NCBI GenBank assembly: GCA_000934665.2
Contig: KZ538769.1
Span: 124,001-160,250, forward strand
Direction: 5' to 3'
Source of the DNA: Catajapyx aquilonaris
Taxonomy: Eukaryota
DNA: 36,250 nucleotides
Both the position numbers and the translations under genes were made by a program. Position 1 is the stretch's first letter. Each line of letters begins with the position of its first letter. Below, in pieces: positions 1-30,210 of the stretch. The notes under the pieces are model-generated. The model did not search any database. It had not been told where the DNA came from and worked only from the letters and a program-made list of their open reading frames with translations.

Positions 1-2009
1 CAGTTACTTTCCAATGCAACCGCGTGCAATAATGGCTTTCCTGATAACGCCCTTGCATTTCGTGTTATCGGATCGTTACAAAATGAAATCGAACTTGCCC
101 ACCTCCGCCTAAGGTTGGCAGGATTTAATCTGAGGCACGATGTTTCATGGCAAAGTCTGAGCGGATGCAGCTGGATGGCGAGGAGGAGGAGGAGGAGGTG
201 GCGGTGGTAGGATGGTGAGGTGGGTGAATCCGCTGCTAGTCACGATTCTTGGCCTGCAAAATCCATACGGGGCACAAGTACTGGTAACGCTCATCCGATG
301 CACCCTCCCCTATTTCACGCTGCTACCACATTCAGAAGCGGGCCCAACAACAGGACTAATGAATTCACTTGTTCCAACAATATCTCAATAGATACCAATG
401 GGAAACATGTGGCATGCAATTAATTCGCGACCAATGGAGAGCGGAGGAAAAAAAAAACTAGTCTCCCTTCTCCAATTGCAACTCGACATACAAAACCGAA
501 AAACTAGTTTGACCGCATGATGTGACCCAAGCTGTGTGCAGGTGAGAAATATTCGTTGTTGTTAATGATGCGAACGACATGTGTAAATGACTCACACGGA
601 CAATCCGCCACATCAGTTCACATTATGTCATAGAGTACGGACCTGATGGGAATACCCCGATTATTTTGACTGGAAAATGCGGGAGTGCGTGCAGACTTTG
701 TAGAACGTTACCGTAAATCAATCCAAAGGGCAATGATACATTTCTGACAGCAATGCGAACCACCATTATCCGGATGCACGATAGTAGTCATTTTAGTTAA
801 ATTATGACAACTGTAACATGCCAACTTTGCTATATTACGCTAAATAACAGTGAAGTCGCATCGGAGGTTCACAAATCACGAAGCACTTGTGCAGTAACCA
901 ATTACTGCAGTTGTATGTGTGGTATTGTACTGTACTGTACATGGCTCTGACGATGAGGTAACGCTACCCCCTTTGTCCCAGCATGGGGCTGCTCTTTCTG
1001 AACACGATTCACTATTTTTTTTTTTTGAGCCCAAGAAACGTGAATATTCACAAACGTGATGATAACTTTTCGGCATCTAATAAGACATTAGCGGAAGATT
1101 TTTAGAACTCTTATTGCAACATAACAGCTGGACCATCTGACGGTCCTTGTTATGCGCCAAGTCTCTAATAGGCTAATGGAATCTGACGAGCCTCAATACA
1201 TGACACGAATAACTTACACTATCTTACTGCATTATTATGTTCCAAAACTCCAGTGCGAATCCCATCGAAGCAATTTTACTCGCTGAAGAATTACCGACTG
1301 TACATAAGAATCCAGTTTGATATACCAAGTGCTTAGACTAATGTATAATAGATACTAAATCCCGGATTTACTTCAATGCGAGCAATTTAATCTGCCCATG
1401 CACCACGCTCATAAATCGCTAAATTGTGATATCAGTCCGTATATAGCCGTTCCCTGAATCATCCCAGCAGGTTCCACGTGTCCGATGCAAAAGACGACGC
1501 ATACGCTTCTGATTGTATAAAAGGCCAACCCCCCACTCCCTATGGGTGTTTACAACGCAATGGCACCCGGCCAAACCTTTCGCTAGGGAATGAATACGTT
1601 CGATGTGCTCTGGCTTCCGCAAGAATCAACACTAGTTACACATTATTCATCGCACTCCCCTCGCAAGATACACGCCCCGACTTAATCTGATGACCAGTCG
1701 CGGTGGGGTCAAAGTTCGCGAAAGGGCATGAATCGCGCACCGAGGCAAGTGATCTTACGCGCACTTATTATTTCCTGATAAGCGGTGCTCGTAAACAAAA
1801 GGGGCGCTCCTTATCCTGGATGGTCTGGAGCATTCCTGCGGCCGTTCATTTGCCCGCGAAATAACTCCGAGGCCGAGTCATTCTGGAATTGGGCCCGGAC
1901 CCCCATTCGCTCTATTCTTGGACTGGATTGTTATAAAACGGGAAGTGTCGGCCACACACCCTGGCTGGCTCACACTTGCCTTGCACAACCCCAACCACGA
2001 GGAGGAGCA

Positions 2010-2032
2010 GGGGGGGGGGGGGGGGGGGGGGG
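2010..2032 (+). repeat. G23 homopolymer
   Basis: 23 consecutive G; similar G tracts at 14024-14043 (with one N) and 20294-20305. Confidence 0.9.
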
Positions 2033-3408
2033 AACTCATCTATGAGCCAGCACGGATTCCTTTATTTATAGAAACCCGATTTAATGCCCCGAACTGACCT
2101 AGACCTCAAGACCCACATGTCGGGGGACACCCGCTTGCCCAATTCTTGGACGCCGATGTGATGCCAAATTCCTTACACTCTGGCCCAAAAAATGTAAACT
2201 ATCCAAGTTTACACACAAATAGGGGCTAACCCAGGGGCTATCGCCATTTATTCCCTCTATAGCAGCGAGACGCCAGGTTCTTTGAATAATTTGGAAAACT
2301 GGTTTGCAGTAATGATCGAAACGCACCCGAAGGCGAAATAACCGCACAAAGGATGCGCTGGCTGCATCGACATTTTTCAGTTGGCCAATGGATAATAAAA
2401 CTTCCAGTGCGCTTTTCAGGCGAGCGTCAGCCCTTACGTCTCTATAACAAAGCCTTCCTCGCAGAATAAAAAAAATGGCGGTCGTTAGTTAGGGGGGGCC
2501 TCAGCACTCTTCTTGGCCAGCCAGCCTCGCCGACGGGGACCTCAATTTATCAATAAATTATGCATCTGGATTTTAAGGGCCTTCTGATCTCACAGCCACG
2601 TCAATTGAGACCACTAATAGAAGCAGTACACAGCCCTCCATCACTGTGCTACTTGCCTTTGCACGCATCGGTTTGCAACAACTAAGACACCTAATTGCAT
2701 CGAGTACCTGCGGTGGATAGGTTTCTAACCCCCAAAAAATGAAGTCGTGCATATGGCACCTGTTGCTGCGGTTACAAGGCCAGCTCTTTGGATAACATTT
2801 CCACGCACATTTGGAAAAAAATCCAATTTGCGACATAGTTTGCTTAATACTCCGAGAGGGTTACAAAGGGTGCAAAAATGGGTCTAATAGGAGCTCCAAT
2901 CGTGCGACACTCTTGATCATGTGTGTGATTCGGCAACTTTCCATAGCTCCCCTCTTTTTTTGGTCAGATAATATCCAGCGATCCGTGCCACACGTGCTGG
3001 TGGCAACATTTGGTCCTGGCGCCCTCCCCCCTGTTCCCCCGTTCCCTCCACAGCAAACGGGCATGCCTGCCACGAATAATAACGAGTTACTCTGGTTCCC
3101 TGGTACCAACCCCAATGGGGGGAAAGCCGCTACACAGAACGAAAGCCCGTCTGATACAAGACAAAAAAGGTGAGGTTGGGCGGGGAAAGCGCGCAAGATA
3201 AATATAGTCGGGCTATTAGTGGTGAATGGAAAGAGAAAACTACGGTCCACTTGGTCTCGCCTCATCAACCTAAAACCAGGTGGGATTACTTAATCCGTAT
3301 TACCAGCCCAATTTTCCAATTGCATTACCCTCTCCACGTGGTTGGCACTTTCATTCATGCCGTTTCCTGTGGGTTACTTTCTCCGGGTAGAAAAGACAAC
3401 ACCCCCCC

Positions 3409-3725
3409 NNNNNNNNNNNNNNNNNNNNNNNNNNNNNNNNNNNNNNNNNNNNNNNNNNNNNNNNNNNNNNNNNNNNNNNNNNNNNNNNNNNNNNNNNNNN
3501 NNNNNNNNNNNNNNNNNNNNNNNNNNNNNNNNNNNNNNNNNNNNNNNNNNNNNNNNNNNNNNNNNNNNNNNNNNNNNNNNNNNNNNNNNNNNNNNNNNNN
3601 NNNNNNNNNNNNNNNNNNNNNNNNNNNNNNNNNNNNNNNNNNNNNNNNNNNNNNNNNNNNNNNNNNNNNNNNNNNNNNNNNNNNNNNNNNNNNNNNNNNN
3701 NNNNNNNNNNNNNNNNNNNNNNNNN
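3409..3725. other. Assembly gap (317 N)
   Basis: Run of N flanked by C7 (3402-3408) and G12 (3726-3737). Confidence 0.99.
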
Positions 3726-3836
3726 GGGGGGGGGGGGCATTATTGTGCATTCCTGTTACTGAATCAATTTCCCTTTCGCTTTCACACTCGGCGGGAGAGA
3801 GAAAAAAAAGGGGCGTAATAGAGATGGACCGGATGG

Positions 3837-3847
3837 AATGTGGGTCA
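3837..3847 (+). promoter_or_regulatory. RORE-type (HR3/E75) monomeric nuclear receptor site AATGTGGGTCA
   Basis: Matches WAWNTRGGTCA. Confidence 0.4.
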
Positions 3848-4949
3848 GCCTGCGTGATGCATTAGCCGGCTCATGTGTGAGATCGATTCGAACCACGTGT
3901 CTCTCCGCCGACTTTCCTCTTCTTCCCACCATCTCTGGACCACCAACAACAACTCGCAAGCATAAAAAAACAGACATAATATGTAGCCAGCGCACCTGGC
4001 ACCCTTTCAATTACATGTCAGGTGACATAATTATTACATACTTGAAACCTAAATTCCGACTGCCTGCAGTCAAACTCCAACCGTGGATAGTACAGGTTGA
4101 GTTAACCTACTTTCGTCCGCACAATTGTTCGCTTGATACGTTTCTTTTTTCTTTTTTTCTTTCGCCGCTGGCACTTATGCAGTCAAGAGCAGCGCACGGA
4201 TAGGTCTTTTCGTCCCGTGCAAAACCTGAGGGGTATCCTTCGCTTAAATATTCCAACTTGCAAGGTATTTATTAACTGTGCACGGAATGATGGTGGGGGA
4301 ATCGGGTCGTAATTCTGCAGCTGCGAGCTTACCATGTTGTGAGTTGGAAGGAGGCAGCACAAAAGTGAAAGGGAATGTAAAACCGCCGCTTTTAAAGATG
4401 CAATCCAGAGATTATGGAATTCTTCACAGCCAATTCAAGCAAATCAATCTGGGATACGAGTAAATGCACCGGAACGCTCGCTATGACTCTCCGATTGCGC
4501 CATAATTGTAGCCGGTGATTCAGCTAATCCTCTCCAAACCGAGCCATAAAAATGTGACATTTATGGCAAAATGTGGAAGAACTCGAGCTCTTCATATATC
4601 CCTGTACAAACAGTCATGCCGAAACAGCAGGGCAAATCATGGGAATATCCATCAAATGATGGCATCGACTTGTGCAGTAAGTTCCGAGAGAACAATGCGG
4701 CACCTGCTCTGCTGATGCTCCATCTACCGCTATTTACAAACTGCAATTAACTTGAGATGATGTCAGCATCCGCATAACCTGTTAGCTGCTGAATCCTTTG
4801 CCCCTTGACGAACGTGAAGTGCTATCGACAACTACACAATGCCACTAGGACTAAATGGATTACATTATATCTAGGCCATTGATATGATGACAGTTGATAC
4901 CGTTTCGCTCTCCGTCAAGACATGGCTGCCAAAGTGACTATCTGCAACT

Positions 4950-4960
4950 TGACCTACTTT
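4950..4960 (-). promoter_or_regulatory. RORE-type site AAAGTAGGTCA
   Basis: TGACCTACTTT on +; perfect consensus. Confidence 0.45.
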
Positions 4961-5579
4961 GCACCGACTATGCATCGCCTATTTCTTTTGGCGTCTAATT
5001 GGAGCATCCCTTGAACCCCCTCCCCTCTCTGAAATAACCGTCGGGGTGCACCCCCTGATAAAACCACGTTGCCGCACCCCTACCACCCCTCCGTACAAGC
5101 ATGGACGATACAGTAAACAAGCAAAGGCCTTCATGCAGTGTAAATATAAGCCCGGTTACCGACGACCTTGCACCACTTTCCGTGCTCCTCTTGACCTTCA
5201 AACTCCGATACCGTATGGCACAGTAGCGAGCAGTGACCTCAGGAGTCAAGGACCCCCCCCACCCCCTGCAAGGCACCCACGCCAAACCCCACCTACGACG
5301 GCACGGAAACCCCCTCGTCACTATTTATAACCCGCACTTTGCAGCTTTTCCATCGGCTCGAGCAGCGTCCTGAGAGGAATCCACGCGGCCGGCATCAACC
5401 CCATAGGTATACCATATAGGCAAAACACTCGGCGCAACAACCGAGCAAATTAAGGCGGTGACGCGGAATTAGAACCCCATAAGTTTGGCTTTACACGCAG
5501 TCAGGAAAGAACTGTGTCACACATTACGTCACCAAAGGCGACATGTGGGAAACGAGCGTCGCTTCCAGCTCGGGAGAAA

Positions 5580-5590
5580 AATTTAGGTCA
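5580..5590 (+). promoter_or_regulatory. RORE-type site AATTTAGGTCA
   Basis: Matches WAWNTRGGTCA. Confidence 0.45.
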
Positions 5591-7908: not shown

Positions 7909-7917
7909 TCAAGGTCA
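7909..7917 (+). promoter_or_regulatory. NR5A/FTZ-F1 consensus site TCAAGGTCA
   Basis: Matches YCAAGGYCR; ~140 bp into the intron after the DBD exon. Confidence 0.35.
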
Positions 7918-8054
7918 CCCCCTTTCTCGTCTCAGATGACTTTTCTCCTTGAGAAGAATGTGCCAGGACGTGCATTAAATTTTTTGCTAAGCTACACTAT
8001 CTAAAAAAGAAAAACATTTCGCGCCTGCAAGTCATAGTAGTGTTGGGGACTCAC

Positions 8055-8604
8055 CTTCCAGCTTCATCCCAACTTCTAGGCACTTCTGGAACCGGCAGTA
8101 GGGGCACCTCTTCCTCTGCGTCTTGTCAATGTGACAGGACCGGTCCGCCACGCACGTGTACACCTTCTTGTTCTGCACTGTGCGTTTGAAGAAGCCTTTG
8201 CAGGACTCACAAGTCAGCAGGCCGTAGTGGTAGCCGGACACTTTGTCCCCGCACACGGGACACAGCTCCTCGATGCCCTCCTTGGTGTCAGGCATGTCTT
8301 GTCCGCCCAACGTGGCGTGGTAGTCCATTCCTGCCCCGGGCCCGCCCCCGTTGCCGCCACCTCCTCCACCGCCTCCGCCTCCTGCCAGCAAACAAGAGTC
8401 CGAGTTACCCAATGAGGCTCCCAACAGGCCCCCGGGCGGCCCTTGGGCGCACGGGTGGTGTCCGTGGTGCATGCTGTATCCCCCAGAGGACATTCCCACG
8501 TGTTGTTGTTGCAGCCCCCCCGAACTGCCCCCAGCCAAGGGGGGGCTAAGGCTGAACGGGGTCACACTCAGACTGGTGATGGGCAACTCCATGTCAGCTA
8601 GCAT
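8055..8604 (-). CDS. ftz-f1: FTZ-F1 (NR5A) nuclear receptor: coding exon with beta-type N-terminus and both C4 zinc fingers of the DBD (partial gene)
   Basis: Translation [19 protein letters not shown]...[72 protein letters not shown] has the NR5A P-box CESCKG and is near-identical to insect FTZ-F1. ATG 8604 is the first in-frame AUG after TGA at 8734-8736. The exon ends at phase-1 donor GAAG|GTGAGT (8055/8054), just before the expected AVRADRMRGG FTZ-F1 box. Confidence 0.96.
8382..8410 (-). other. ftz-f1: Internal 3' splice acceptor within the FTZ-F1 DBD exon
   Basis: GGTAAC...CTCTTGTTTGCTGGCAG|GA (branch-like TAAC, pyrimidine tract, CAG); phase 1, matching the donors of the distal exon. 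Confidence 0.65.
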
Positions 8605-8868
8605 ATTAAGGGTCACTCCCCCACCGCCACCACCACCACCACCTCCGATTCCTTGGTACGCCAGCGCAACGCTTGTACACAAACTGCGGTCACAAAAACT
8701 CGAAACAAACTCGCACAACACTTTTTTTTTTTTTCAAAAATCACTGGTATGTCACCTGCCGGTCCACACCCGGGACACGGCCAGGTCGTGCGGTCCCCAT
8801 TGCAAATCCTGACCGTCCACCATCACTGACACTCTCCAAACGTAGCCAACGCGTGTCTAAAAGTATCC

Positions 8869-8898
8869 ACTGAAAGCACGTGGGGGTTGACCTATCGA
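8869..8898 (-). promoter_or_regulatory. Candidate proximal (beta-isoform) promoter/leader element: TAGGTCA half-site + CACGTG + Inr-like TCAGT
   Basis: Minus strand reads TCGATAGGTCAACCCCCACGTGCTTTCAGT, ~270 nt upstream of ATG 8604. Confidence 0.3.
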
Positions 8899-10363
8899 GC
8901 TGTGTGGGTACTACAAGCTTCGAACCGAGCCTAGCGACGGACCGACTGTAGCCAGAGAGCGTCTAGCACACACTGCCAGCCCAAAGCCAGATACAATGGA
9001 GAATGATCAGACAGCCGATGCAATAAGTGAAAGTGGATGGAGTCGCCTGGCCTACTTTTCTGCTAACCAGGTCTATGTTAGTGCCGTTGAGTGTAGAGAG
9101 CGAGAGTGGTGGGCTATTGCTGGTGGCCCACTGCCCTACTTACGAGGGCTCCCCGGGCTGCTGGAAAACCGGGGGGAAGGCGGGGCTGGGGAGGAGGGGA
9201 AGGGCACAGTACAGCCGACGGGGCCCGACCGCGGCGTTGCGATCGCCTTTTTGTGTGTGTGTGTGTCTGTCTGTCCCCCCCTATACCACCACCCAACGTC
9301 CCAACCCCAGGCTAAAACACCCCCCTCTACTCGCGCAACAAGGGCCCTTACCAAAAGCACGCCCATATCGCATGCTAAAGCCGCACACCACGTTTTTCTT
9401 CATTCACAATTGAAAGCCGGCTCCAGACTACTAGCCCCATGCTGCCAGAGCTCTCATCCTGATTGATCGCGACCCCATACGCACTGGCCCCAGCCAACAT
9501 TATTAGGTCCAAACATTTTTAGCACGCCAAATTACGACTGCCAAGGCGATTGTTGTGAATGTAGGTTAGGGGTTTTTCGCAGGCTCTGTTTTGGTACGCA
9601 ATCGATAACCCCGGCCGTGCACGGACCCTACTTAACCCTATTCTTATCCTTGCGTTAAAGAGAAGGTGCACACAGTCCAATTGTTAACATAAAATGTGCT
9701 ATTGCCGTGAAATAATTCAAAACTGACTAAATGAACCAACAGTAAATCTGGGCGCGTACTACACGTGGAAGTTTTATGGCCGTCCATAAGACGGACCCAT
9801 TATGCCAGCCAAATGTGAAAATATCCTGAATGTAATTTTACGGGGACATATGGCGGTGGGACTCGTTACATCTCGCAGGTTCATGTTGTCCGTCTGCAGT
9901 ACTGCGACGTTCATTGAAACGACACATCCATCACATTTTGAGTGCAGATCCAGTACATGAAAGTGATATTTAGGTCGACATTGTGTCACTTGGAAGTCTG
10001 AAGGTTAGCTGAACCTGCAACCTTCTGCATGCCTATGGTGACACCAGATTTTTGGGCAATTGGTTTTGAAAAGAAGGTCCTAAAGCTATTCTTTATGGGG
10101 GGATACCCATTGTATTTTATAATGAAGCCTATCTCCGCCCATGAATCACAGCCTCAGGCAATCTCTCCAAGTCGTTGAGCAAAAGATAACCCAGTCTTAT
10201 GAAATTGTCACTGTGACGAGCTCGACTCTTCCATATTGGGAAAGTAAAGGCGAAAATGTTCTACCCTTTCTCTCGCTGGGTATACCCGTGGGCGGGCTCA
10301 TGTACGACACCACAACTATAAAACTACAAATACGTAATATCAAATAATTCATAGCCTCTGCGG

Positions 10364-10374
10364 AAAGTAGGTCA
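10364..10374 (+). promoter_or_regulatory. RORE-type site AAAGTAGGTCA
   Basis: Perfect consensus. Confidence 0.45.
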
Positions 10375-13300: not shown

Positions 13301-15653
13301 GATTGCGCTTAATCGTCCCAAAAAATTGTGCAAGTGAACATTGCAAATTCTGTCATGTCAAACAATGGTCTCAAAAAAAATTCTTGAAAATTTTTAGGGA
13401 TAAGGGAACAATCGTTTATTCACTCTGGCCTTTTGTGACATCGTTGCAAAACCCTGCTGCATTCTTGAAATAGTTAGCCCGTGCCATCCTCGGTACCTGT
13501 ATGCTCATCATGCCGGTGCAATCCAACCTGACGTGTAAGATGAATATACGCACGAATACGTCACACAAATTGATAACCGCAGGACTTCGCAACTGCGTCA
13601 GACTTAAGTCGTTCGGCAATAAGTGTACCTCTCTCTCTCTCCGATAATGATAATAGCGCCAACCCTTCCACAGGCCGGTTCAAGGGTCACTCCTATCAGT
13701 CCTGATAGCCGCTGGGTGGACCACTGATTTCCCTTCCTTCGATCCATTCCAAAAAACGATGGATTTTTCCTCCCTTCCAAGCTCCAGCCACAATGCAAGC
13801 CTCTCCGGCAAAACAGCACGGTAAAGGCGTGACTATCCAAGTGTCACGTTTTGGATTAGGCAAGAAAACAATTACCCCACACCAACTCGAGTCCGGTAAA
13901 GCGGTTGGTGGTTTTATTTCAGCACCTCCTGACCCGATCAAACACTGCATAAGAGATGATTCCATCGGGCCGACACAATAATTGGGACACGTGAGAAGCC
14001 ATTTTCCTCTCTTATCAAAAGGAGGGGGGGGGGGGGGGNGGGGTGCCCGCCGTATCTTCGGTTCCTCTCCAGTGATTACTTGCCCAATATTGCTCGACCC
14101 ATCCCTTTGGTCTCGTGACGTCCTTTCTAAATCACCGATGGAAAAACCAGGCGTTTCCTATATTCGCTCCTACACTTTGGCGCACTGCTAATGTGTACAT
14201 GAATAATTGACCTGCGACTAGCACTAGCACTTCGGAGCCAATCCGACAGCTGTAAGCGGTGAAGCATGTTCCATATTCCCTGGCGCGCACTAAAATTGGA
14301 CAATTCTCTCAAAGGAATCGGTAGGCCGGCTTCTCTCTCAAGTGAGAAATGGGACACGGAATTCCTGCTGTGTTTATCTCCCTAGGTGAAAGTGATGATA
14401 CGTTCGGTCGACTAGACGCAATACCACGTGGATTTTCATTATGTCACATGTCGTGTTATGAATCTCAAAAGTGTGCTTTACAAGAGTGCTGGAACGTAAT
14501 TTTTTTTTTGTACCTAGAACCGGCGGTACTCGGTTAATGAATTCGTGCTATCATAGCGGCTGTTTGATCTCCGAGGGGGATCAGTCCTAAACTATTATTT
14601 AAACGTGAGCTCTTGTAATTAAGGGGAGGGATTGAATCGCCCATCGATCCTTTCAAAATTGTAGCTGCCCAAAGCATGACACGATCATGCTGGTATAATG
14701 GCGCAAAATTAAGCTTAACTTTGATCCCAATTTAAGTACTCATTCCGTTGCTCTCTAATGGGGACCCCTATATTGAACTGACTTTTTGTTCTCCCAAGTT
14801 AATTCCCTAAGTAGGGAGGACTTAACTTCAAATTGAAGCGCATCCGAGGTAATTGGACAGAAAACTGTAGAGTGATCCGCACTCGCAGGCGTATATTCCC
14901 CTGTTACAATGGCCAGTTATGCACATTTTCAGCGACTTTGCGCACCGGCGTGAGAAACTGTGCAAAATACCCCTAGGCTGCTCACACAACAAAGAAAACG
15001 TAATTCACGTGCATCGCATTATGGCAGCTAATCCTACGCACTTTTGCTGCGACGAAAGTGAGTCTGAACATCCAACTTTTCCTTTCTACCCGCCCACAAC
15101 AGTATCATTATATCAGGTTTGCGCAAACCTGTCTTGCGCAATACAAAAAAATAACAATTGGCCGTTATTAAGATCCTGCAGGCATTTCTTTTTTTAAAAG
15201 TTTGAAAGTGCAAGTGGCGTCGTGGTTACGAAGGACACGTGCCTTGGACCGTATCGAAGTGGTTCAAGTGCAGTGGGTTTTTAGGTCACTTTCCAAGTGT
15301 GACTTTATCATTATCCCATATATTCCCCCCCCCCTCTCCCCACCCTGTTTCTCCCTAAGCCTTTGCCTATTACGTCGATTTGGCGAATCTTTTATGGCAG
15401 CAGAGGGTAATTGAAATGAGTCCTCAGCAAGTGGGTCATCTCGCCCGGGGAGTATTTTCACCACGTACGGATTGCATCATTCCCCGATTCTTAACAGGAT
15501 GACACTTTACCACCCGCGTGTCGATTTTCCGATACACGCTGATAATGGCGGGAACGAGATTTTTCGAGTGGTTCGAGTGCTGAGAAGACGTGCGAGCAGA
15601 TGTCGTTTATTCGGTACTTCAAGCAGTTCTGTCCACAAGCTTGCATTCCCTAC

Positions 15654-15664
15654 TGACCCATATT
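15654..15664 (-). promoter_or_regulatory. RORE-type site AATATGGGTCA
   Basis: Matches consensus; two looser sites nearby (15278-15288, 15428-15438). Confidence 0.45.
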
Positions 15665-17682: not shown

Positions 17683-17710
17683 CACACACACATCCACACA
17701 CACACACACA
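17683..17710 (+). repeat. Interrupted (CA)n microsatellite
   Basis: cacacacacatccacacacacacacaca. Confidence 0.8.
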
Positions 17711-18762: not shown

Positions 18763-18853
18763 CCAAGGTCACACAAACACACACGACATCCATTCGTAAT
18801 TTCCCTCCACCAATCTAATGTCCAGGTATCTCTTGCGTGGCTTGACCCACTTA
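18763..18853. promoter_or_regulatory. NR5A site CCAAGGTCA (18763-18771, +) next to RORE-type site TAAGTGGGTCA (18843-18853, -)
   Basis: Both match consensus, 70 bp apart, followed by a 22-bp repeat. Confidence 0.4.
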
Positions 18854-21800
18854 CCCAGTGCACTAGACCCACTTTCCCTTTCTAGGGGATTGTTAAGTAA
18901 CAATGTGTCTTGCATCATGCCCATGATGGGTTTGGGGAGAGAGGGATGGAAACACCTGTCCTCCCCCCCTCCCCCACCCCTCGTTGTTTTTTCAATTCGA
19001 CCTTCCCTGATTGTGAACTGACATCCTAACACAGTGCACTAGACCTACTTTCCACCCTTTTTCCACCTGCCGAATAGGGCGGCCGGACCACACTTTCGTT
19101 TTCCATCTCGTGGCCGACCACTCTTACTCCTACACAAAAATCCCAACGCATATCATTTAATTTTCGCTGCCATATTGTGCATGCACCATGTCCTTCCAGC
19201 CCATCTCTCTATTCCGAAAGACATTGCGCAACCCACCCAATTGTCGTGTTTCCAACCTGATTTCCATTGCAGAGGTCGCGGGGTCCCAAAAAGCAATTTT
19301 CCCTCCGCCCCTGTCTCCTTCTATGGCGACGCTCGTTTTTTGATCCACATTAGTCATCGGCTCAACTTTGTAGCGGAGAAAATATCGCTTTCCTGCCGAA
19401 TTACCAATAAAGCTTTAGTTGCGACTCCCCGGCTTTTGTCAGCGCTTAATGCCGTTTTGATACCGCACAATGAAACGAGTTTGTCGCTCCCTCGAGTCGT
19501 ATTCCCCAGCAGTCAATGGCATGGAGTGACTTTTCGATAAGGGCAAAACCCCAGGCACGGTACACAAAAGCAATATGCAGCAGCCTGATTTAATGCTCCG
19601 AGGGTGACTAAAGTCCACTCGCTATCGTTATTGTCACATGAGGCCCAGCGCACCACAAGTGTGGCAGGTGAGGCCTCCAATCCTATCTTCTCTTCCCTTT
19701 AAGGCCGTAAGTTTCACATGTCGTAAAAACGGCTATCTCAGCGTATCAAAAAACCAGTGACAAACTGAAGGACAAAGCTCTTCACCTTTTTTTTATACCC
19801 TCCCCAAACTGTCAATATTAGCCGCTTAAGATGCCGTGCCTACATTTGGGTTCGATTAACCTAGCGTGACGTACACTGATGTCATCAATTCGCCTGGGTG
19901 CATTATACGCACATCGCTGTGTATTGAACTAACGCTGCATTGCGTGTGCTCGAGACATCACACGCCCCTATTAAATCGGCTCACCACCGCAGCACATAAT
20001 ATCGGTGCGCATAAATACGTGATCCGCACATATGACGTCCGCTAATAGTCATTATGCTCAGAGTTGCCTGATTCATCTCATGCGTCATCCAGGTTTCGCC
20101 ATTATTCGCACGTTAGCATCCCCTTCTTTCCTTTTTACTATGTCACCTATTATCGTCGAATTCACATAACACCTGATTGAATCATCCTGAATAATGAAAT
20201 ATGCAAAAACGGCCTAAATATGTGCCGCAGCCGCTGTTGGGCAATCAATATAGGCAGAGTCCTATTGACCAAAGTGTAGGCTGCATATAGTGAGGGGGGG
20301 GGGGGTTACGACTGGGGGGGTTCTCCTCTGCCTACTTACCTCCTGACCCACTAACATTGGCACTACTTCAGCAGCCATTCATTAGGCCTCGAGCCAACCT
20401 CTGACGTGGTCCCTTTTATGGATAACCTGTCCTGGAACGCAAGCTGGAGTTATTTGCCCCACCAACTTTTAACCACCCTTCATTTTCCACCCTCTCTCTC
20501 CTCCCCCCGCCCAAACTTCATCTATCTACAGGAGTGTTGTGGGTCTATAATCGCATTAGTTCCACCAACGTTGCGTGGGCGCACCAAAACCTTCGCTTTT
20601 ATTTTTAGGTCACTAAGTCAGCACCTTTTTGTCCCATTTTTAGGGAGGGGCTGTTTTTTAAAAAAAAGGGCTGCTCCCCCGCCTCTTTTTAGAGGAGGTG
20701 CGGATGACTATGCTGGGATGTAACTCCGGTGGAAAAAGTGGTCCGTCAGCGTGTATCGGGGTGGGAAATGTTGCGGGTAGTTAGTTCCCAATGAAAGGGA
20801 GCGTGGCGTCCAATGGTGCTGGCCTACTTCGCCACTGGCGAAAGTGAAATGCAAAGCACACTGATTTAGGTCTGATGAAAGGAAAAGTATTTTCTAACGT
20901 GATCCCGCGTTGTTATCTCATGCGATGAAAGGGAGTGGGAGATACAGCCAGAGTGAGAGAGAGAAAAAAAATTGGTTGACACCATTGTTGGATGGGCACT
21001 TTCAGTTTCGACCAACTATTTAATAATTGCAGCAAACCAATATTTCAGGATTCTGTGAAGCACATTCCATGCTTGTATCGAACTTTTCATAACATATTGG
21101 TTTTACACACAAAAAAGCTCACTTTTCACTGCGAACAAGTGAGCTATTATAAATGACGTGCATTCATCTTGATGCATTAAAACAGGGGTCCCTGCGTAGC
21201 TTTGTGGCCTCTGACAAATTGACAATCAAATCGACGGAAACTGTATAGGAATGGCACCTAATTTTCTATGATGACGCTCACGCTAAAATCTGGCCATATG
21301 TAGCTGATTTATAACTAGAGGGATCGGATCCACATCCTTGACCCAATTGTCATGGGAGAACTCGTCGTATTCTGTCAAGGTCTTCACTCATGTGCGGACG
21401 TTTGTTGTGTTGCCCGCACTACATGAAACAACAAAAAAAGAGAGTTATGGGCAACACATTGTTCCAAGCTCCTCTATTATCTCGACTCCAGTCTTGATAA
21501 TCCTGATTATTCTCGCCAACAGCGTCAAAAAGCGGTTCGCGTGACTGTAGCTGGCAATGGGCAAAATTGCGCGTCGATATGAGGCTGGAGCTCGTTCCAC
21601 GCTTACTTTTACATACTAACTTTTTTTTTTTTTGTGGTCCACAAAATATTTCATGCATTTTTTACTACTCGCAGCAATCAGCTCTAATTCGTATAGTTGT
21701 GGAATGTGACAGTGTATTGTATGCTAGAAGACAAAAACGCAGCCTCCAAAATATGCAACCATAACTCGCAACAAGCACACTATACTCTCGTGCTCGGAAA

Positions 21801-22599
21801 CAAAGGGCCCAGTGCTTTCGTGCCACGTAAAGCCGGGTATCGATCCCGTAATCGATTGCAATCATCAGAAATACTCCACTTTTAATGCCTTCCTGAAATG
21901 TTATCGGCTTGGCAATTCAGACTTTTAAAAAGAACCAACTCAATCATACACGGTGCATACACGGTGCATTCACACTGCATATACGATGTACAATAATCAA
22001 ACTATAATAGGTACACGTGAAGCTAAAACCAATTTTCGTAGGAACAAACACGGTCGTATAGAAGATCCTGTTATTTGCGTAGCATCTCTACGGTAACCAA
22101 TTTGGACCCCCAGAATCTAATTTTGTAACCTCATTCCTTCCTGATTACAATGTCGGGTCGGCAATAACAACCCATCAGGAATGCTGCATCCTGCAAGTTA
22201 GGTTTCCCCTGCAACAGAAAATGTACTGCTCCAAACACTCAGGATGAACGAAACATTCCACACACACACCCATCTAAATACTCAAGATTCTCCACACACT
22301 GTGGATTATTCTGAAACTATTCCACCATTCACTCCATATCTGGCGCAAGGATTTGCCAGTCACCGCAAGACACGGTATGCTACGTTGAGTCATTTTATGA
22401 CATTATAATTACAGTGTATAGATTACTGCAGTATTATTTCTCATCCATTCTTCTCATTTTAATGTACCGCCCATTATACTTTTCGAAAATACGAAGTCGT
22501 TGGAATTTTTGGTGTGCAAATCATGACCACGATTCTGACACTCAATGCTTCCGGTATCTGATGTATATTTTTACTTACGTTATAAACAATGTAAGTAGA

Positions 22600-22608
22600 T
22601 GACCTTGG
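22600..22608 (-). promoter_or_regulatory. NR5A/FTZ-F1 consensus site CCAAGGTCA
   Basis: TGACCTTGG on +. Confidence 0.3.
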
Positions 22609-24865
22609 AAAACGTGAACAGCGTTAACCTGATTTTGCGACCACGCCAAATAAGCGCGCCTCGATTCCCTTTTATTCCCCATGCATAGTGTGTAAACACA
22701 GCATGTTTTATTTCTGAATCCAATCGTCGTTACGCACGCTCATGCCAAGCCATGATTAAATAAGTTATTTGACAGATTCAAGTCATGATACTACGAATTC
22801 ATCACTGAATATGCGGTTCCAAACAAACGCCAAAAAGGTCGTAAATAATCTTGAGAAAAGCACTGTGAGAGAGTTTCCAATATATCGTTACATAATCAAG
22901 TCACTATATGCAGAGTGTATACATCAATATATCATGTCACGAGATATGTCAATTTCGTCATAAATTACAACAAAATTCCAAAGGTCAACCCCTGTAAGAT
23001 CCTGGTACTGTACACCCTAATTTCCCAGGAAAAAAACACGTACATACACAATGCTTCCTGATCAATTAGTATCGTAATTAGGCCAAAGTCATGTCAAGGT
23101 TTAAGCAGAAAAAATGTGAACAAATGCCCATATTCTTCCAGTATAAGAGAAGCATCGCTAGAAAGCATCAAAGTAGCCGAGTCCGGATGAGCTCTCATCT
23201 CCCAAGGATATCAGCAACATGAAATGAGGTTACCATGAATAGGATTTGCAGGTCCCCCACCTCCCCACTAAGCCCTCTTCCCCTTGGAAGAATACCAAGC
23301 ACTGTTTAAAAACTTGAAACACTGAACTTCTAACACACCTTCATTGTGAGGCTGCAAGAGATGCTATCTTGCAAGCCTCCCAGCTCAAAACCACGAGGGT
23401 TACCAAGTACCGCCTCTGTAGCTTTTCAGGCAGTGCAGTGGAAGATTGCACTTTGCAACTTTATTATGCAGCCGTGCATTGCTACAATTCCCAGCAGGGG
23501 ATCTAGTTTCTCCCTATTTTCGCCAACAAAACCCGGCTCTAATCTGCGCAGTATCCACTCCTTTTTAAGTGTCTTTTAATGAAGTTCACTGACTTTGGCT
23601 GCTCTTGGTCAGATAAGAGGCGAGGTGCAGCGCAAGCTAAAAGTCTCTGCGCTTTTACTACGGGGTTGGGAAACACGAGGTCCGCTTTACGTCACCAAAA
23701 CAGGCGTAGGTAAACATCAACAGCTTTCTGCGACGAAACGTTACGTCTTCATCCAAACCCGGGCTGCTGTAACACGACGCACAACCTGTGCAATTTTTCA
23801 GACCGTGACATATAAATATAATCTCATTATTTCTCGCCAAATGCGTGGCAGATTTTTCAAAGCGTATGCTCCTCAAGGATGCTTCCCAGCACCATTCTTC
23901 GCAGACGCAGATAGACGGAACCAACTCATGAGCTATAATTAAGTGACCTTCCACCAAAACACATGAAACGCTTGACCCACTTCTCAAGCCAAAAATGCTC
24001 GCAATGTCAACATGGATGACGTCCCATAACCCAAACCTTCTCTCTCCACACCAAAACCCTTCAATATTTTTCCCCCCCAACCCCTCTCCCGAAATTTATG
24101 TGGTTCCTCCTTAATATCCCTCCCGTGTCGGATCGCTTCAACTCTGCCATGCAGCACGCTCCGTTGCGTTATTGGAAGTTATAACCCGCCCACAAATTCG
24201 TCATCCCATCGTAAATGAGGTCTCCGGGTTAAAAATTGCGTCCACCAATTTTTTTTCAAAAAATAAATTAATGCGTCACACATTTCCTAGCTAAGACGAA
24301 TGGCATTTAGTTTGGTGCCTGTTGGCCACCCTAGAAAACAACTGCCGTGCTGCGTATATGACACCCTCCTGCATGTGCAAATTTTTCTGCGCTGATATCA
24401 CTTCTGGGTGCCAGTTCCTCGGGTGACGATGACCACTCTCAGCGGAGTTGGACAATACAAACCCGCGATAACGGACCAAAACCGTGGGAGAGTTGGCAGG
24501 TTATCGCTCGGCATATTGCAAATCAACACCTCTGGTGGGGTGTTGAGTGCACACAGGGTCGATTACGCCGCCATGCTCGAATCAGGTCACCCACTAACAT
24601 TGGCACTGCTGGCCTGGTTGCTGGATTGATGGTGGTTTGCTGGAGGTTATTCTTCCTTTTTTTCGGTCATCCCCATCCAGTATGGAGAGGCTGGTGGGGG
24701 TGGAGTGCATTTTTTTTCTGCCAAAGGGGCGAGGCCATGGCATGCAAAAGCAGAACATGTAAGAAGGCGAAAGGAAAAGAGTGGTGGGGGGACTCTATGC
24801 TGTGTTTGTGACGCAGCAGGAGTACCCCTGGCGGGCCTCCCCGCAAGCTTTAGAGCTGAGCCGAC

Positions 24866-24876
24866 TGACCCAGTTT
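24866..24876 (-). promoter_or_regulatory. RORE-type site AAACTGGGTCA
   Basis: Matches WAWNTRGGTCA. Confidence 0.45.
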
Positions 24877-27135
24877 CCCTGATTGATTTGCTCGGCTATG
24901 CCTACACCACTCCAAAAGAGCTACTAGCAATGCCTTCAACCACTGCTTTTTTTGTGTGTGTGTCATTATTATTATTTTTACCACCCATGCCCTCATTCAG
25001 CAAGCTGCAAATTAGGCCCAGCAAAAAAAAATTCTGTGGCCATGTACGCTTCATTTCAATATCACGCACCCAGGCAAAATGTTTGCACTGAAAATAGCAG
25101 GTGCACAGTAATGATGCGACCCAATTTTGCGTCAAAAAAATGCCAACAATGTGTGAACCTTGGATCGGAATTTTTTTACCCGAGGTTCTCTGCTGGAATT
25201 TATATTCATCCGGGGAAGAAAACAATGCTCTCGGTACAGGGGCACCAGAAAAAATTTATGGCTTGATGAACCGCCCCCGTCGTTTTATTTTGAATGGGAC
25301 GTACCGCGATGGCGACGCAGCCTCTCTAAGGTCCAAAATGAGGTTGCTTCCTCATCCCAGGAGGCAATTTTCTAGGACCTCCAATCAAACATCCCTCGAG
25401 GGCCATTGACCAAACTGTCCGATTCATCCTCCCCAAAAATATAATTCTCAAAGAGCGGTTCTGACCCTTTTTATTAATGAAAACCTGCCCCAATGTTGCG
25501 GGTTTTGAAAAGCAAAAGCAACATAACGGTAGCTCTTTCGTGTCAGCTTTCACCCCAAAAACCCCTTCTTCTTTTTGCGACACGAACCACTTTCTTTTTC
25601 ACCTTCCCTTTCGACGGAATCCTTGTCAACTAGTTAGAAGAAAAAATTTGCATTATTGGCGGGGGCCATGTTTCTTATTGGATGATATCACTTCAAATTT
25701 GATGCGGTTTTCGGGCCACAAAAGCGCGTGAGAAGCGTCTCCTTCCTTTGCAATCGATTTCCGATAGACTCTTGCGCGTCTTACCCACGTGTGACGCGAC
25801 GCAGTAGGTCAGCAAAACGTTAGCGCTTCTCCACCACCCCCACCACCTAAAATTGAGGTAAAAGCCAGAGAAAGAGGTCACCTCCTTCAAGAAAGGTCGA
25901 GCGGAATCAATACTGCCCTCCAAACTAAAACAGGGTGTGCTCCACATCTTCTGATGTGTATTCTGGTTATCTCGCAATGGGGTTTGTAACCCTGCACATG
26001 ACATGGAGTTGCCCAAATTTGTCTGCTGTGGACTTATAAAATATCAGGGGCATTAACCACGCAATTTGTGGAATACAGCTCAATTTGTTTTCTGATATTG
26101 TGTTTGAATGTAAATATTTGAGCGACATGCACAGATGCTGCTAACTCCAAAAATAATTATGTCGCTTCCATTATTACCATTCTCTGTTATGTAAATAAAT
26201 CATTACCCTTGCAGCTAATCAAACAATACAAAAAGCACAATTGCTGAAATGAGCACGGCTTGTGATCGAATCAGAACGGTTTGAAATTGGAGCCAAATTT
26301 TACTTTCATAAAACCGCTGCGATGGGCAGACGTAGCGGTTTGGCAGTGCAAAACAAGTATTTTTCCTGAAAAAGTAGACCAGCATGAACTTGACCCAAAT
26401 CCTAATTATGGCATTGTGTGAATGGCATCATAGTGACACAACTACAGCAGCGTTCCTTTCCATGACAGGGTGAAAGTTGCTCGGATTGTTACATAAAACT
26501 ACGTTCCCTGGCGATGAGCTTGGATTCACCAGTCGAGACTAGGCCTAGGCCTACTTTCACGCTCCGTGCCCGCAAGCACTTTCTGTTGCTCGTGCACTTG
26601 CACTGCGAATGCCATAGAATTCACTCGCACTTACTCTCCATTCTGCACTGAACGCAACACAATTTCAGTTTTAATACCACAATCAAGGCCTCCATATTCA
26701 AGCAAAATTGCTCTCAACAAGCAACTAAAAACATGTATCGTTTAACACCAATTTGGTACAGGCCTAGGCTACTTGTAAATAACATTTCATTTGAATAGCT
26801 ACCAATTTTGTGCCCAATGTGAATTTATCCAAGCGAGCAGTTTGCGCTTAGATTCTATATTAACCGCATGCGCTCCAAATGCACTCAACGTCGCACCCTG
26901 GTTACAGTTTCATCCAGGCTGGTTTTTCAACAGTATGACTCCACCGAGGGGTTGAATCGTGCACCGACAGACTTGTAACAACAACCATGTGCATTGCGCT
27001 GCCTCCTCGCAGCATGTCGTTTGCCTCTACCAACATGACTCTTCAACGCTGATGTTGGGTCACATGCCGTACTCATTTTTAATCATATATTTCATAGAAC
27101 ACACCATGCATGATCCTTACCCATGTCATCGTTAC

Positions 27136-27268
27136 CTGAGAAGGAGACATGCTCAGGCGAGCTGTGCTGCGACTCGGGCTGGGTCGTGGTCGAGGCCGCG
27201 GACGCCGTGTTCTCCTCGCTGCCGCCTCCGCCAAGCCCAGCGGCGACCACCGATGCCTCTTCATGCAT
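27136..27268 (-). CDS. ftz-f1: Alternative (distal) first coding exon of FTZ-F1, MHEEASVVAAGLGGGGSEENTASAASTTTQPESQHSSPEHVSFS; alternative donor extends it to 27121
   Basis: ATG at 27268 with A at -3 and an in-frame TGA 36 nt upstream. MHEEA...AASTxxQP resembles, from recall, the MHE(E/D)A...AASTSQP N-terminus of several insect FTZ-F1 proteins. Phase-1 donors CAG|GTAACG (27136) and TGG|GTAAGG (27121) fit the phase-1 acceptor at 8381. Confidence 0.82.
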
Positions 27269-27964: not shown

Positions 27965-27975
27965 AAAGTAGGTCA
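27965..27975 (+). promoter_or_regulatory. RORE-type site AAAGTAGGTCA
   Basis: Perfect consensus, ~700 bp upstream of the distal exon ATG. Confidence 0.45.
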
Positions 27976-28113
27976 GGGTGCCGAGGCGTGTTCAGGGGCT
28001 CACCCCCACACCCACCCACTCCGAAGAACCCACCAACCCCCTAGCTTCATCATGGCCGGATCCACACATATACAGAGTCCAGAAGGAGGCAGTCCCGGGA
28101 AAATTTTGTCAAT

Positions 28114-28165
28114 AAAATGGCGGAACTTTTGCGATGTATAACATGTGAGGGGAAAAAAATGGCGG
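28114..28165 (+). promoter_or_regulatory. Pair of YY1/Pleiohomeotic motifs AAAATGGCGG
   Basis: Identical 10-mers at 28114-28123 and 28156-28165; a third copy at 2472-2481. Confidence 0.4.
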
Positions 28166-28762
28166 GGTTTTTTTCACACCCGAATGGATAGCAGGTGGCA
28201 TCTAACGGTTGGAGTTGGAAGTTTTGTCATTCATTTCAGATTTTGTGAATTTCGCACGGGGATTGATAAATGAGACAACATGGAAGGGACATGTGTGGTG
28301 GCGTGACAATTGGCATCGCAGATGAAACACCAAACTTCATTTTTCAAAACTTTAAAAACAACGAAAATTTGGGCATTTAAACTATTAAAAAATGCAGTTA
28401 TTTTTGGACTTTTCCATGAATCAGTGGCACATAGGACATCGGTGTGCCAAATTTCAGTACTCTCAGAGTGTGGAAGTGGGTTAGGTAGCCCGGACAAACA
28501 TACAGATATGTACACACTTTAACGTTTATAAGTATAGAGATTAATTAAATTCAGCATGAAACTTGACCATGCCAATGTGTTGTTCGGAGCAAACAAGATC
28601 GGGAAATCACGCGAGCGTGATTCGAGTCGACTTCTTCTCATTGGGCAGTGGGAAGTGAGGCTGACATTGCGATGCGATACGACGCAATTCTACAGGACAA
28701 CACAATGACATTGGTTGCTGTCAGTTTCATTTCCTGATTTAAATGCCAATCTGCAAGTAAAT

Positions 28763-28771
28763 TGACCTTGA
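28763..28771 (-). promoter_or_regulatory. NR5A/FTZ-F1 consensus site TCAAGGTCA near the putative distal promoter
   Basis: TGACCTTGA on +; Inr-like TCAGT (minus) at 28831-28835. Confidence 0.3.
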
Positions 28772-30210
28772 CGCATAGAGTGAATCCGGAAAATCGGAAG
28801 TGGTGGGTCACCTGAAGTTGGCCATGAAACACTGAATACGAATCCGAAAACGGTTTGTCGCTATCTCCTGCAGTTTATTAGGCCCTGATACCTGTCCACA
28901 GACAGACAGACAGAGATAAGCCCTTTTTTTCGATCAGAAAAGTCTAAAAAGAGAACTATCTTCTAACAGGGAAGTTGAAATATTAATATATTAATTTTAT
29001 TCCATCAACCCCTTACAGGGAAATGTCGTGATGGTGATGATGATGACATCAATATTGACAAATATGTTGTGATATGGTTTCTGTTAAATAAAAAAAGACG
29101 TCAAATTAATTTAATAATATTCACTAACCTTACCATGCCATGTACTTTTCATACAAAAACCTGCCTTTTATAGCAGAGTAATTGAAATACATATTAATAA
29201 TATAACAATAACAAATAATATTGCATTAATGTTAATAAATATTATGTACTTATAAGGCTCGATAAATGCAAAAAAAATCATCATCATTGGCCTATGAATA
29301 GTGTGGTCAACAATACTGAGGGCCACAGTCAAATGGTAAAAATAGGTTTCAAATGTGACCGCATAAATAGATGGCAATGAAACATAACTTGGGACGTCAA
29401 ACCAGATATGTATCGGTGTAACTTTTCAGATGTAATCCTGTTTGGCTTTCAGTTCACAATCTTGGGAGTTTCAAAAATGCAGTCTTGCTTGGCTCTTGGT
29501 TTGCAATATACATGTATTACAAGCAGGAAGGTAGAAATCCATATGTGTCACATGAACTGTCTGGGAGACATGTCTGTTACCTGGTATTTGCATATAGTCT
29601 GCACCTGCTGAGGTGACTTTCAACATCAAAGTTGGAATCCATTAGGCTGGTGGAAATGCAGGGAGGTCTTGGGAGAGGTAATAAACTTCAACACCTAATG
29701 ATACAAAAGGATAAGGAAGAACAAATAAATCAGCATTGTTGGATTGTATGTTACTTGCAGTTTTCCTACTTTATTTATCAGTCTTGCATAATAATATTTC
29801 ATGCACTTTCCTATGACATCCACTGCTTCATTGGTTGTGGTGCACACCTTATCAACACCTGCTGACATTGTGGTTGGAATGGCATTCATTTGCTCCATTC
29901 GAGGATATGACCTGATTGCACTGTTGATCCTACAGTACAATGTAACTAATGTGCAAGGAGATACTGACCTATCCCAAATGAATAAAAAATATCTCCTCTG
30001 AATACTATTACTGAGACATATTACGTATTACTTTCAGGCAAAGTATTTCATGGACACAATATCTGTAGTAGGATGTCCTGCAAGACATGAAATAAAAGAC
30101 TGGTTACAACAAACTTTAACAATTCACAAGTACTTGGTGCCATTTCACTCTTGCAATCCTTCTGCCCTATACAGCGCAGGTATCAGTAATGTCATTTTGT
30201 GGCTTGATTT

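What the first reader, a model, noticed from the sequence alone, without database searches (positions are those of the whole stretch)
523..28810. FTZ-F1 locus is studded with ROR/HR3-type monomer response elements over ~28 kb
Seen: 8 strict WAWNTRGGTCA sites (3837, 4950, 5580, 10364, 15654, 18843, 24866, 27965; three are the identical AAAGTAGGTCA) and about 22 TRGGTCA cores in total (others at 523, 2095, 8888, 11470, 15278, 15428, 20344, 20602, 21339, 23973, 25801, 26391, 27052, 28800). There are also many one-off variants ending GGTCG, GGTTA or GGTCT. A uniform-base model predicts about 0.5 strict sites and about 7 cores. Known: in insects HR3 activates beta-FTZ-F1 and E75 antagonises it through such sites, described mainly near the transcription start. 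Inference: the whole locus, including both large introns, may be a dispersed array of HR3/E75 sites that times FTZ-F1 expression in the moult cycle.
Basis: partly seen in the sequence, partly recalled or inferred. Interest (0 to 1): 0.72.

Follow-up and report, generated by a model that had tools for sequence, protein, structure and literature searches.

The report
Conserved HR3/E75 sites around FTZ-F1
The DNA in and around an arthropod moulting-timer gene (FTZ-F1) carries about ten times more binding words for the hormone-induced receptors HR3 and E75 than chance gives, and related insects and crustaceans show the same excess, which suggests an old, shared control layout for a switch so far worked out mainly in the fruit fly.

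Summary
Observation confirmed. The window has 8 strict RORE-type sites against 0.6-0.9 expected, and 0 of 100 shuffles reach 8. The 5' half of the motif is the top-ranked of 7,053 7-mers in an unbiased scan. The gene is FTZ-F1 on the minus strand, with alpha- and beta-type N-termini.

The excess recurs in other arthropods: 24 sites against 2.0 expected in 17 genomic FTZ-F1 loci, but 2 against 3.1 in 43 spliced transcripts. It is about 40-fold near the beta start and 7-9-fold in introns and distal DNA.

In this window both receptor sites are one-mismatch variants.

Best reading: HR3 activates, and E75 and Blimp-1 repress, through a promoter switch plus dispersed monomer sites. Binding, start sites, timing and genome-wide background were not tested. 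This is a known circuit with a cis-layout that I did not find described.

The parts
8055..8604 (-). FTZ-F1 beta-type coding exon (beta N-terminus plus C4 zinc-finger DNA-binding domain), ending at a phase-1 GT donor; the remaining exons lie beyond coordinate 1
   Evidence: Translation; Pfam zf-C4 E 2e-32; the arthropod hits are FTZ-F1; no further FTZ-F1 exon in the window
27136..27268 (-). Putative alpha-type first coding exon (44 codons plus a phase-1 donor), predicted to splice to an in-frame acceptor at 8382/8381
   Evidence: ORF; it starts like the alpha N-termini of springtails and insects, seen by eye, but blastx support is weak, 16 bits; donor and acceptor phases agree; no RNA evidence
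9124..9141 (-). Element I: Rev-DR2-like double half-site (A/T-rich 5' extension, half-site, 2 bp, half-site), one mismatch in each half
   Evidence: The same element with a perfect first half occurs once per locus, on the gene strand, upstream of the beta start in termite-like L011/L013/L015, L025/L026, mayfly-like L038, L076 and springtail-like L050
9048..9057 (-). Element II, part a: one-mismatch RORE at the head of the conserved core-promoter module
   Evidence: Aligned with a RORE or variant in L011, L038 and L076
9022..9035 (+). Element II, part b: Blimp-1/PRDM1-like site, inverted relative to the gene, 26-28 bp before the Inr-like word (the usual TATA position, if the Inr is the start)
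   Evidence: Matches the Blimp-1 consensus quoted in PMC10027706; mostly invariant columns in 4 of 4 aligned sequences; inside a 46-bp block 85-87% identical to termite-like loci (window 8990-9035)
9001..9006 (-). Element II, part c: initiator-like word, the inferred beta transcription start about 400 bp before the beta ATG
   Evidence: Inr pattern recalled; same alignment columns in L011, L038 and L076; not verified with RNA
3837..3847 (+). Strict RORE, downstream intron
4950..4960 (-). Strict RORE, downstream intron
5580..5590 (+). Strict RORE, downstream intron
10364..10374 (+). Strict RORE, 1.77 kb upstream of the beta ATG
15429..15438 (+). 10-letter RORE, alpha-beta intron
15654..15664 (-). 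Strict RORE, alpha-beta intron; followed by a partial second half-site at 2 bp
18843..18877 (-). Strict RORE (18843-18853) paired with a one-mismatch site about 22 bp away; part of a 35-bp unit repeated at 19019-19053 (83%)
21339..21348 (-). 10-letter RORE, alpha-beta intron
23973..23982 (-). 10-letter RORE, alpha-beta intron
24866..24876 (-). Strict RORE, alpha-beta intron
26391..26400 (-). 10-letter RORE, alpha-beta intron
27965..27975 (+). Strict RORE about 700 bp upstream of the alpha ATG (putative alpha promoter region)
30363..32562 (-). Neighbouring medium-chain acyl-CoA dehydrogenase gene (upstream boundary of the array; no strict site from 29501 on)

Best explanation
The region is the cis-regulatory domain of the FTZ-F1 gene of an arthropod, probably a non-insect hexapod (inferred). 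It has two tiers.

Tier 1 is a conserved beta promoter: a Rev-DR2-like double site, then a RORE, an inverted Blimp-1-like site over the -30 region and an initiator. Tier 2 is 12 strong and about 10 weaker monomer ROREs spread over both introns and the alpha promoter.

Inferred working: during the ecdysteroid peak HR3, E75 and Blimp-1 are induced. HR3 loads on the ROREs but the gene stays off, because E75 competes for or joins the same sites (as a dimer on the DR2) and Blimp-1 blocks the core promoter. As the hormone falls the repressors decay, and the pre-loaded HR3 at promoter and introns turns the gene on sharply.

Shown here: motif excess, motif class, recurrence across species and promoter order. 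Taken from Drosophila or Bombyx work: the identity and sign of the factors. Inferred only: start site, occupancy, E75 dimer binding, promoter occlusion and the function of individual intronic sites.
For: Window: 8 against 0.6-0.9 expected; 0 of 100 shuffles and 0 of 300 permuted motifs reach 8. The top 7-mer of 7,053 is the 5' half of the RORE (15 against 2.3, p 3e-8), and the second is a Blimp-1-like word (19 against 5.4, p 5e-6).

Other species: 24 against 2.03 in 17 genomic loci (122,757 nt), with 11 of 17 loci carrying at least one site and 0 of 300 permuted motifs reaching 24. Spliced records have 2 against 3.06 (43 records, 165,296 nt). 3' UTRs have 0 against 1.51 (33 of 43 records, 66,288 nt). 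By zone: beta-proximal 13/0.30, distal upstream 5/0.53, downstream introns 6/0.85; with the 10-letter pattern 15/0.50, 7/0.89 and 13/1.40. Element I occurs in 5 other hexapod lineages and element II in 3.

Literature: DHR3 sits on the fly ftz-f1 promoter before activation and also 1.5 kb downstream (PMC3424582, section 11 and passages). Blimp-1 represses and Hr3 activates ftz-f1 (PMC10027706, passages). BmE75A and C repress BmHR3 on RORE-linked genes (PMC4499807, passage). RORE and RevDR2 are defined in PMC7086371 (passage).
Against: There is no binding, expression or start-site data for this organism, and no genome-wide background; the negative controls are small (0.1-1.5 sites expected). 6 of 17 loci have no strict site, including 10.5 kb of a hymenopteran-like downstream intron (L066) and 5.3 kb of L012. 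The 17 loci fall into about 9 lineages and come from the best 80 of 289 hits, so they are not independent.

Intronic sites could not be aligned between species. Element patterns were drawn after seeing the data, and one position was widened to admit the window. The DR2 signal is clear for the start of the second half (6 of 66 sites at spacer 2, 0-1 at other spacers) but not for a 4-of-6 match (9 against 7 at spacer 0). Element II was not found in L025 or L050, and element I was not found in the crustacean-like loci.

The Blimp-like 7-mer is only 1.6-fold enriched across species (37/22.6), and the stricter 8-mer is not enriched in the window (3/1.2). PMC12380352 (passage) argues that HR3 does not drive beta-Ftz-f1 in silkworm and Manduca, and a fly preprint notes induction without Hr3 (10.1101/2020.09.18.304410, passage).
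Confidence: 0.7

Rival explanations
1. The sites are real HR3/E75 elements, but only the promoter tier times the moult. The dispersed sites belong to separate tissue or stage enhancers (embryonic stripes, ovary, neurons, clock) or are redundant, fast-turnover sites, not one locus-wide timing array.
For: Enrichment is about 40-fold at the beta promoter but 7-9-fold elsewhere. Intronic sites are not alignable, and L066 lacks them. E75A and ftz-F1 form mutually exclusive embryonic stripes in cockroach and cricket (PMC10228571, passages). In the fly only one of two promoters responds to DHR3 (PMC3424582).
Against: The intronic and distal excess persists in several lineages (20 against 2.3 with the 10-letter pattern), which needs continued selection. 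Both louse isoforms cycle with the moult (PMC8136749, abstract and passages). This rival is not exclusive of the best explanation.
Confidence: 0.18
2. Another nuclear receptor is the main reader: E78 (recalled as a close E75 relative), HR4, HR38, or FTZ-F1/HR39 in autoregulation.
For: All read the same six-base half-site (established knowledge), and sequence cannot separate HR3, E75 and E78. FTZ-F1-type elements are slightly above expectation (4 against 1.4-2.1 in the window; 9 against 5.1 across species, p 0.07).
Against: The excess is confined to half-sites with T directly 5' and an A/T-rich extension, the ROR/Rev-erb signature (PMC7086371). Half-sites preceded by A, the FTZ-F1/HR38 type, are 8 against 3.7-4.8 (p 0.03-0.12). 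EcR-type palindromes and the full HR38 element were not counted.
Confidence: 0.08
3. Non-functional: a genome-wide compositional bias or remnants of a repeat that carries the motif.
For: Genome-wide background is unknown. One local duplication does create two variant sites (18843-18877 and 19019-19053). An order-5 model removes the significance of the 7-letter core.
Against: No repeat family links the strict sites. The same excess appears at the orthologous gene in termite-like, mayfly-like, springtail-like and copepod-like loci of 33-59% GC. There is none in transcripts, 3' UTRs, DNA after the stop codon (0 against 0.19 in 8,858 nt) or the MCAD side. The promoter elements keep their order and strand.
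Confidence: 0.04

Closest known systems
Drosophila beta-ftz-f1 regulation by DHR3 (Hr3), E75 and Blimp-1 (Kageyama 1997, Lam 1999, Agawa 2007 as cited in PMC10027706; the originals were not read; ChIP in PMC3424582)
   Same: Orthologous gene with an inducible beta promoter just upstream of the DNA-binding-domain exon; motifs for the same activator and repressor classes; DHR3 is also found 1.5 kb downstream of the fly promoter.
   Different: Here the sites are spread over at least 24 kb and reach the alpha promoter region, which in fly S2 cells is not inducible. The promoter carries a Rev-DR2-like site, pointing to direct E75 dimer binding, whereas the fly model as I recall it has E75B tethered to DHR3. 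The evidence here is sequence only. No dipteran genomic locus was in the sample, so identity of the elements with the fly's was not tested.
Vertebrate RORE / RevDR2 elements read by ROR and REV-ERB (PMC7086371, passage)
   Same: Half-site with an A/T-rich 5' extension; activator and repressor compete at the same site; a 2-bp-spaced direct repeat for repressor dimers.
   Different: Arthropod orthologues HR3/E75 on a moult clock, not the circadian clock. The second half-site matches only 3-5 of 6 bases.
C. elegans NHR-23 targets with several ROREs (let-7, lin-42, nhr-23; PMC9377799, passages)
   Same: Multiple ROREs above chance at moulting-cycle genes, shown there to bind the HR3 orthologue and to set pace.
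   Different: Those are six-base sites within promoters of a few kb; these are 10-11-base extended sites over tens of kb of the FTZ-F1 orthologue. The passages seen do not treat nhr-25.
Two-promoter FTZ-F1 gene structure of panarthropods (PMC8136749, abstract and passages)
   Same: An upstream alpha exon splices into the DNA-binding-domain exon, whose 5' extension encodes the beta N-terminus.
   Different: The passages seen deal with exon structure and expression, not with cis-elements. Its S1 File was not read.

Membership tests
RORE (NR1F/NR1D monomer element) | Six-base nuclear receptor half-site | tested here: met
   51 half-sites in 1-29500 against 26-38 expected under orders 0-3
RORE (NR1F/NR1D monomer element) | A/T-rich 5' extension with T next to the half-site | tested here: met
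   22 of 51 half-sites have the T; A/T at 18 of 22 in two upstream positions
RORE (NR1F/NR1D monomer element) | Bound by HR3 or E75 and confers their regulation | not testable with these tools
   No ChIP, EMSA or reporter data for this organism
RevDR2 element | Extended half-site plus a second half-site 2 bp downstream | tested here: inconclusive
   Start of the second half conserved at spacer 2 in 6 of 66 sites against 0-1 at other spacers; full second half matches only 3-5 of 6; the 4-of-6 test gives 9 against 7 at spacer 0; the window copy has a mismatch in each half
RevDR2 element | Cooperative homodimer binding of Rev-erb/E75 | not testable with these tools
   Needs EMSA
Blimp-1/PRDM1 site | Match to the 8-letter consensus | tested here: met
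   Window 9026-9033 matches the consensus quoted in PMC10027706; conserved in L011, L038 and L076
Blimp-1/PRDM1 site | Blimp-1 binding and repression | not testable with these tools
   Needs binding or reporter assays
FTZ-F1 (NR5A3) gene | NR5A-type C4 zinc-finger domain closest to arthropod FTZ-F1 | tested here: met
   Pfam zf-C4; up to 99% identity over the domain to named FTZ-F1 proteins
FTZ-F1 (NR5A3) gene | FTZ-F1 box and ligand-binding domain | tested here: inconclusive
   These exons are not in the window; they should lie beyond coordinate 1
FTZ-F1 (NR5A3) gene | Alpha and beta transcripts from two promoters | tested here: inconclusive
   Both N-termini and phase-matched splice sites are present in the DNA; no transcript evidence was obtained
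Homotypic cluster of binding sites | Many sites for one factor class, above chance, at a known target | tested here: met
Homotypic cluster of binding sites | Sites grouped into discrete enhancer-sized modules | not tested
   No clustering statistic was obtained

The most novel reading that the evidence does not exclude
The cis-regulatory hardware of the 'hormone has fallen' switch is older than insects. Crustaceans and hexapods share a locus-wide field of HR3/E75 monomer sites and a beta-promoter RORE. Hexapods add a Rev-DR2 on which E75 represses directly as a dimer, and a Blimp-1 site placed on the TATA position that physically blocks initiation. The promoter is thus a deeply conserved three-input timer, recognisable from sequence alone. 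Its loss or retention by lineage would predict where HR3 does or does not drive FTZ-F1, which is disputed for Lepidoptera.
Probability: 0.35. Interest if true: 0.72.

Novelty: new variant of a known kind. Interest (0 to 1): 0.52.

Why it matters
FTZ-F1 comes on only when the moulting hormone falls, and how that timing is wired is described as not completely understood even in the fly (10.1101/2020.09.18.304410, passage) and as HR3-independent in moths (PMC12380352, passage). Short non-coding elements that stay recognisable between a probable non-insect hexapod, termites, mayflies and springtails, plus a shared site excess in copepods, give exact targets for binding and mutation tests in species without genetic maps of this promoter. 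They also give a comparative test of whether the HR3-to-FTZ-F1 link is direct and ancestral. The circuit itself is known, so the gain is in architecture and evolutionary depth.

Tried and rejected
Genome-wide background: no genome is held.

Transcript mapping: one run search found 6 runs, 4 of them possibly the source DNA and 2 with small shares of 0.14 and 0.07. No read or contig layout was obtained, so exons, start sites and polymorphism at the motifs stay open; the small-share runs are not used as evidence.

Repeat origin was rejected for the strict sites. FTZ-F1 autoregulatory elements as the source of the excess were not supported. A general dimer (DR2) nature of the dispersed sites was rejected: only 1 window site outside the promoter keeps the start of a second half-site at 2 bp. 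A locus-wide Blimp-1 array across species has weak support only (1.6-fold). Alignment of intronic sites between the window and 24 genomic loci found only the 46-bp promoter block. Placing the beta start from 5' ends of 56 spliced records failed: none carried the promoter patterns. Formal tests of site clustering, EcR-type and HR38-type elements, model-based counts of one-mismatch sites and Blimp-RORE co-location were not obtained.

Literature: 10 searches listed no paper whose title or abstract start describes a locus-wide RORE excess or a conserved DR2/Blimp-1/Inr promoter at FTZ-F1. Two primary papers were not held, one abstract book returned no text, and PMC3498158 passages were not relevant. 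Look-ups in earlier findings by relatives and by words were empty.

Full report
Gene context. The window holds the 5' part of FTZ-F1 on the minus strand. One exon (8604-8055) encodes a beta-type N-terminus and the C4 zinc-finger domain; its named arthropod relatives are FTZ-F1, up to 99% identical over the domain. No later FTZ-F1 exon is in the window, so 1-8054 is intron. A short ORF at 27268-27136 begins like the alpha N-termini of springtails and insects (seen by eye; blastx support is weak). It ends in a phase-1 donor that fits an in-frame acceptor at 8382/8381. This matches the two-promoter structure described for panarthropods (PMC8136749, abstract and passages). An MCAD gene at 32562-30363 bounds the region; its best single-domain hits are insect proteins at 82-87%. 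The mix of a hexapod-type alpha start and a beta start closest to krill and barnacle suggests a non-insect hexapod; this is inference. No transcript evidence was obtained.

Observation. All 8 strict sites and 22 cores in 1-29500 are present. Expected strict sites are 0.54-0.75 under Markov orders 0-3 and 2.2 under order 5. 0 of 100 dinucleotide shuffles and 0 of 300 column-permuted motifs reach 8. An unbiased word count ranks the 5' half of the RORE first of 7,053 non-low-complexity 7-mers (15 against 2.3) and a Blimp-1-like word second (19 against 5.4; the label is recalled). The excess is specific to half-sites with a 5' T and an A/T-rich extension; other half-sites are near expectation (29 against 21.6-29.3), and FTZ-F1-type elements are not clearly raised (4 against 1.4-2.1). 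By eye, 10 of the 16 imperfect anchored sites have a single mismatch, where about 2.3 are expected. No repeat family explains the strict sites.

Cross-species test. One metagenome scan gave 289 confirmed relatives, of which the best 80 were kept: 24 genomic and 56 spliced. I dropped 7 near-duplicate genomic loci (L011, L014, L015, L016, L026, L052, L078) and 13 redundant transcripts. The 17 genomic loci (122,757 nt) carry 24 strict sites against 2.03 expected; 11 of 17 have at least one, and 6 have none, including 10.5 kb of L066. The 43 transcripts (165,296 nt) carry 2 against 3.06. By zone (which used L011 for upstream and L013 for downstream termite DNA): within 1.5 kb of the beta ATG 13 against 0.30; further upstream 5 against 0.53; downstream introns 6 against 0.85; after the stop codon 0 against 0.19; 3' UTRs 0 against 1.51 (33 of 43 transcripts). 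The loci are termite-, mayfly-, springtail-, hymenopteran-, copepod- and mite-like or unplaced (labels by best N-terminal match), about 9 lineages, so the p-values overstate independence. The negative controls are small, and no genome-wide background exists.

Conserved promoter. The only non-coding match between the window and any locus is a 46-bp block at 8990-9035, 85-87% identical to termite-like loci. Around it lie two elements. Element I (9141-9124) is an extended half-site, 2 bp, and a second partial half-site. With a perfect first half it occurs once per locus, on the gene strand, 0.8-1.0 kb (2.4 kb in L050) before the beta ATG in five other hexapod lineages, and in none of the crustacean-like loci or 56 transcripts (81 sequences searched, pattern drawn after the fact). 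This is the RevDR2 layout (PMC7086371, passage), though the second half matches only 3-5 of 6 bases and a looser test does not single out spacer 2 (9 against 7 at spacer 0). Element II is a RORE, an inverted site matching the Blimp-1 consensus (PMC10027706, passage) and an initiator-like word 26-28 bp further on. It is shared with L011, L038 and L076 but was not found in L025 or L050. In five crustacean-like loci with enough upstream DNA (L020, L045, L069, L072, L077) a monomer RORE lies on the gene strand 0.6-1.15 kb before the beta ATG, and in four of them a second lies on the opposite strand at 110-190 bp.

Mechanism. Shown: excess, motif class, recurrence and order. From other species: DHR3 is on the fly promoter before activation and also 1.5 kb downstream, and transcription rises after ecdysone removal (PMC3424582, section 11 and passages); Blimp-1 represses and Hr3 activates ftz-f1; Blimp-1 sites lie in a transiently open region of fly ftz-f1 (PMC6743789, passage); Bombyx E75 represses HR3 on RORE-linked genes (PMC4499807, passage); several ROREs set pace at nematode moulting genes (PMC9377799, passages). 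Inferred: HR3 pre-loads on promoter and intronic sites; E75 (possibly as a dimer on element I) and Blimp-1 (over the -30 region) hold the gene off until the hormone falls. Against: HR3 is argued not to drive beta-Ftz-f1 in moths (PMC12380352, passage), fly ftz-f1 can be induced without Hr3 (10.1101/2020.09.18.304410, passage), and the dispersed sites may serve embryonic or tissue enhancers (PMC10228571, passages). Sequence cannot separate HR3, E75 and E78.

Novelty. The circuit is known in Drosophila. Ten searches listed no paper that, by title or abstract start, describes the locus-wide excess or the conserved promoter layout. The primary fly papers were not available (the others recalled only), and the supplements of PMC8136749 and PMC3424582 were not read; they may cover part of the promoter. 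No dipteran or lepidopteran genomic locus was in the sample. Verdict: a real, conserved feature; a new variant of a known regulatory system; interest 0.52.

Noticed in passing
window 30363-32562 next to FTZ-F1: MCAD may be an old neighbour of FTZ-F1: in Zophobas the two carry locus tags Zmor_006906 and Zmor_006909, and in Neocloeon, Periplaneta, Ischnura, Tenebrio and Brassicogethes both list the same longest-contig length.
   Followed up: partly
window 35566-35733, minus strand: A second, diverged copy of the last MCAD exon (69% against 83% for the main copy), suggesting a tandem paralogue upstream.
   Followed up: no
window 34430-34852 (outer arms 34324-34988): Inverted repeat with 120-nt arms, 88% complementary, nested in a 32-nt outer pair; it looks like a small transposon.
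   Followed up: no
window 10105-27135: The Blimp-1-like 7-mer is 14 against 3.2 expected in the alpha-beta intron; the cross-species excess is only 1.6-fold.
   Followed up: partly
L020 8985-9024, L072 1051-1090, L077 1331-1360, L069 3365-3402: Copepod-like loci share a 30-40 bp block upstream of the beta ATG, with an AP-1-like word (recalled label) and an inverted word resembling the hexapod Blimp-like site; in L069 it lies in reverse orientation.
   Followed up: partly
window 20346-20367 and 24589-24610: A 22-bp direct repeat (95%), 4.2 kb apart; the first copy overlaps the RORE core at 20344.
   Followed up: no
L038 about 584-605: In the mayfly-like promoter the element II RORE is followed by an inverted copy of its 5' half, forming a palindrome.
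   Followed up: no
L050 1136: A springtail-like locus holds the alpha-type first exon 8.2 kb upstream of the beta start, the same layout as the window.
   Followed up: partly
window 3409-3725: Assembly gap of 317 N between poly-C runs, 110 bp from the strict site at 3837.
   Followed up: no
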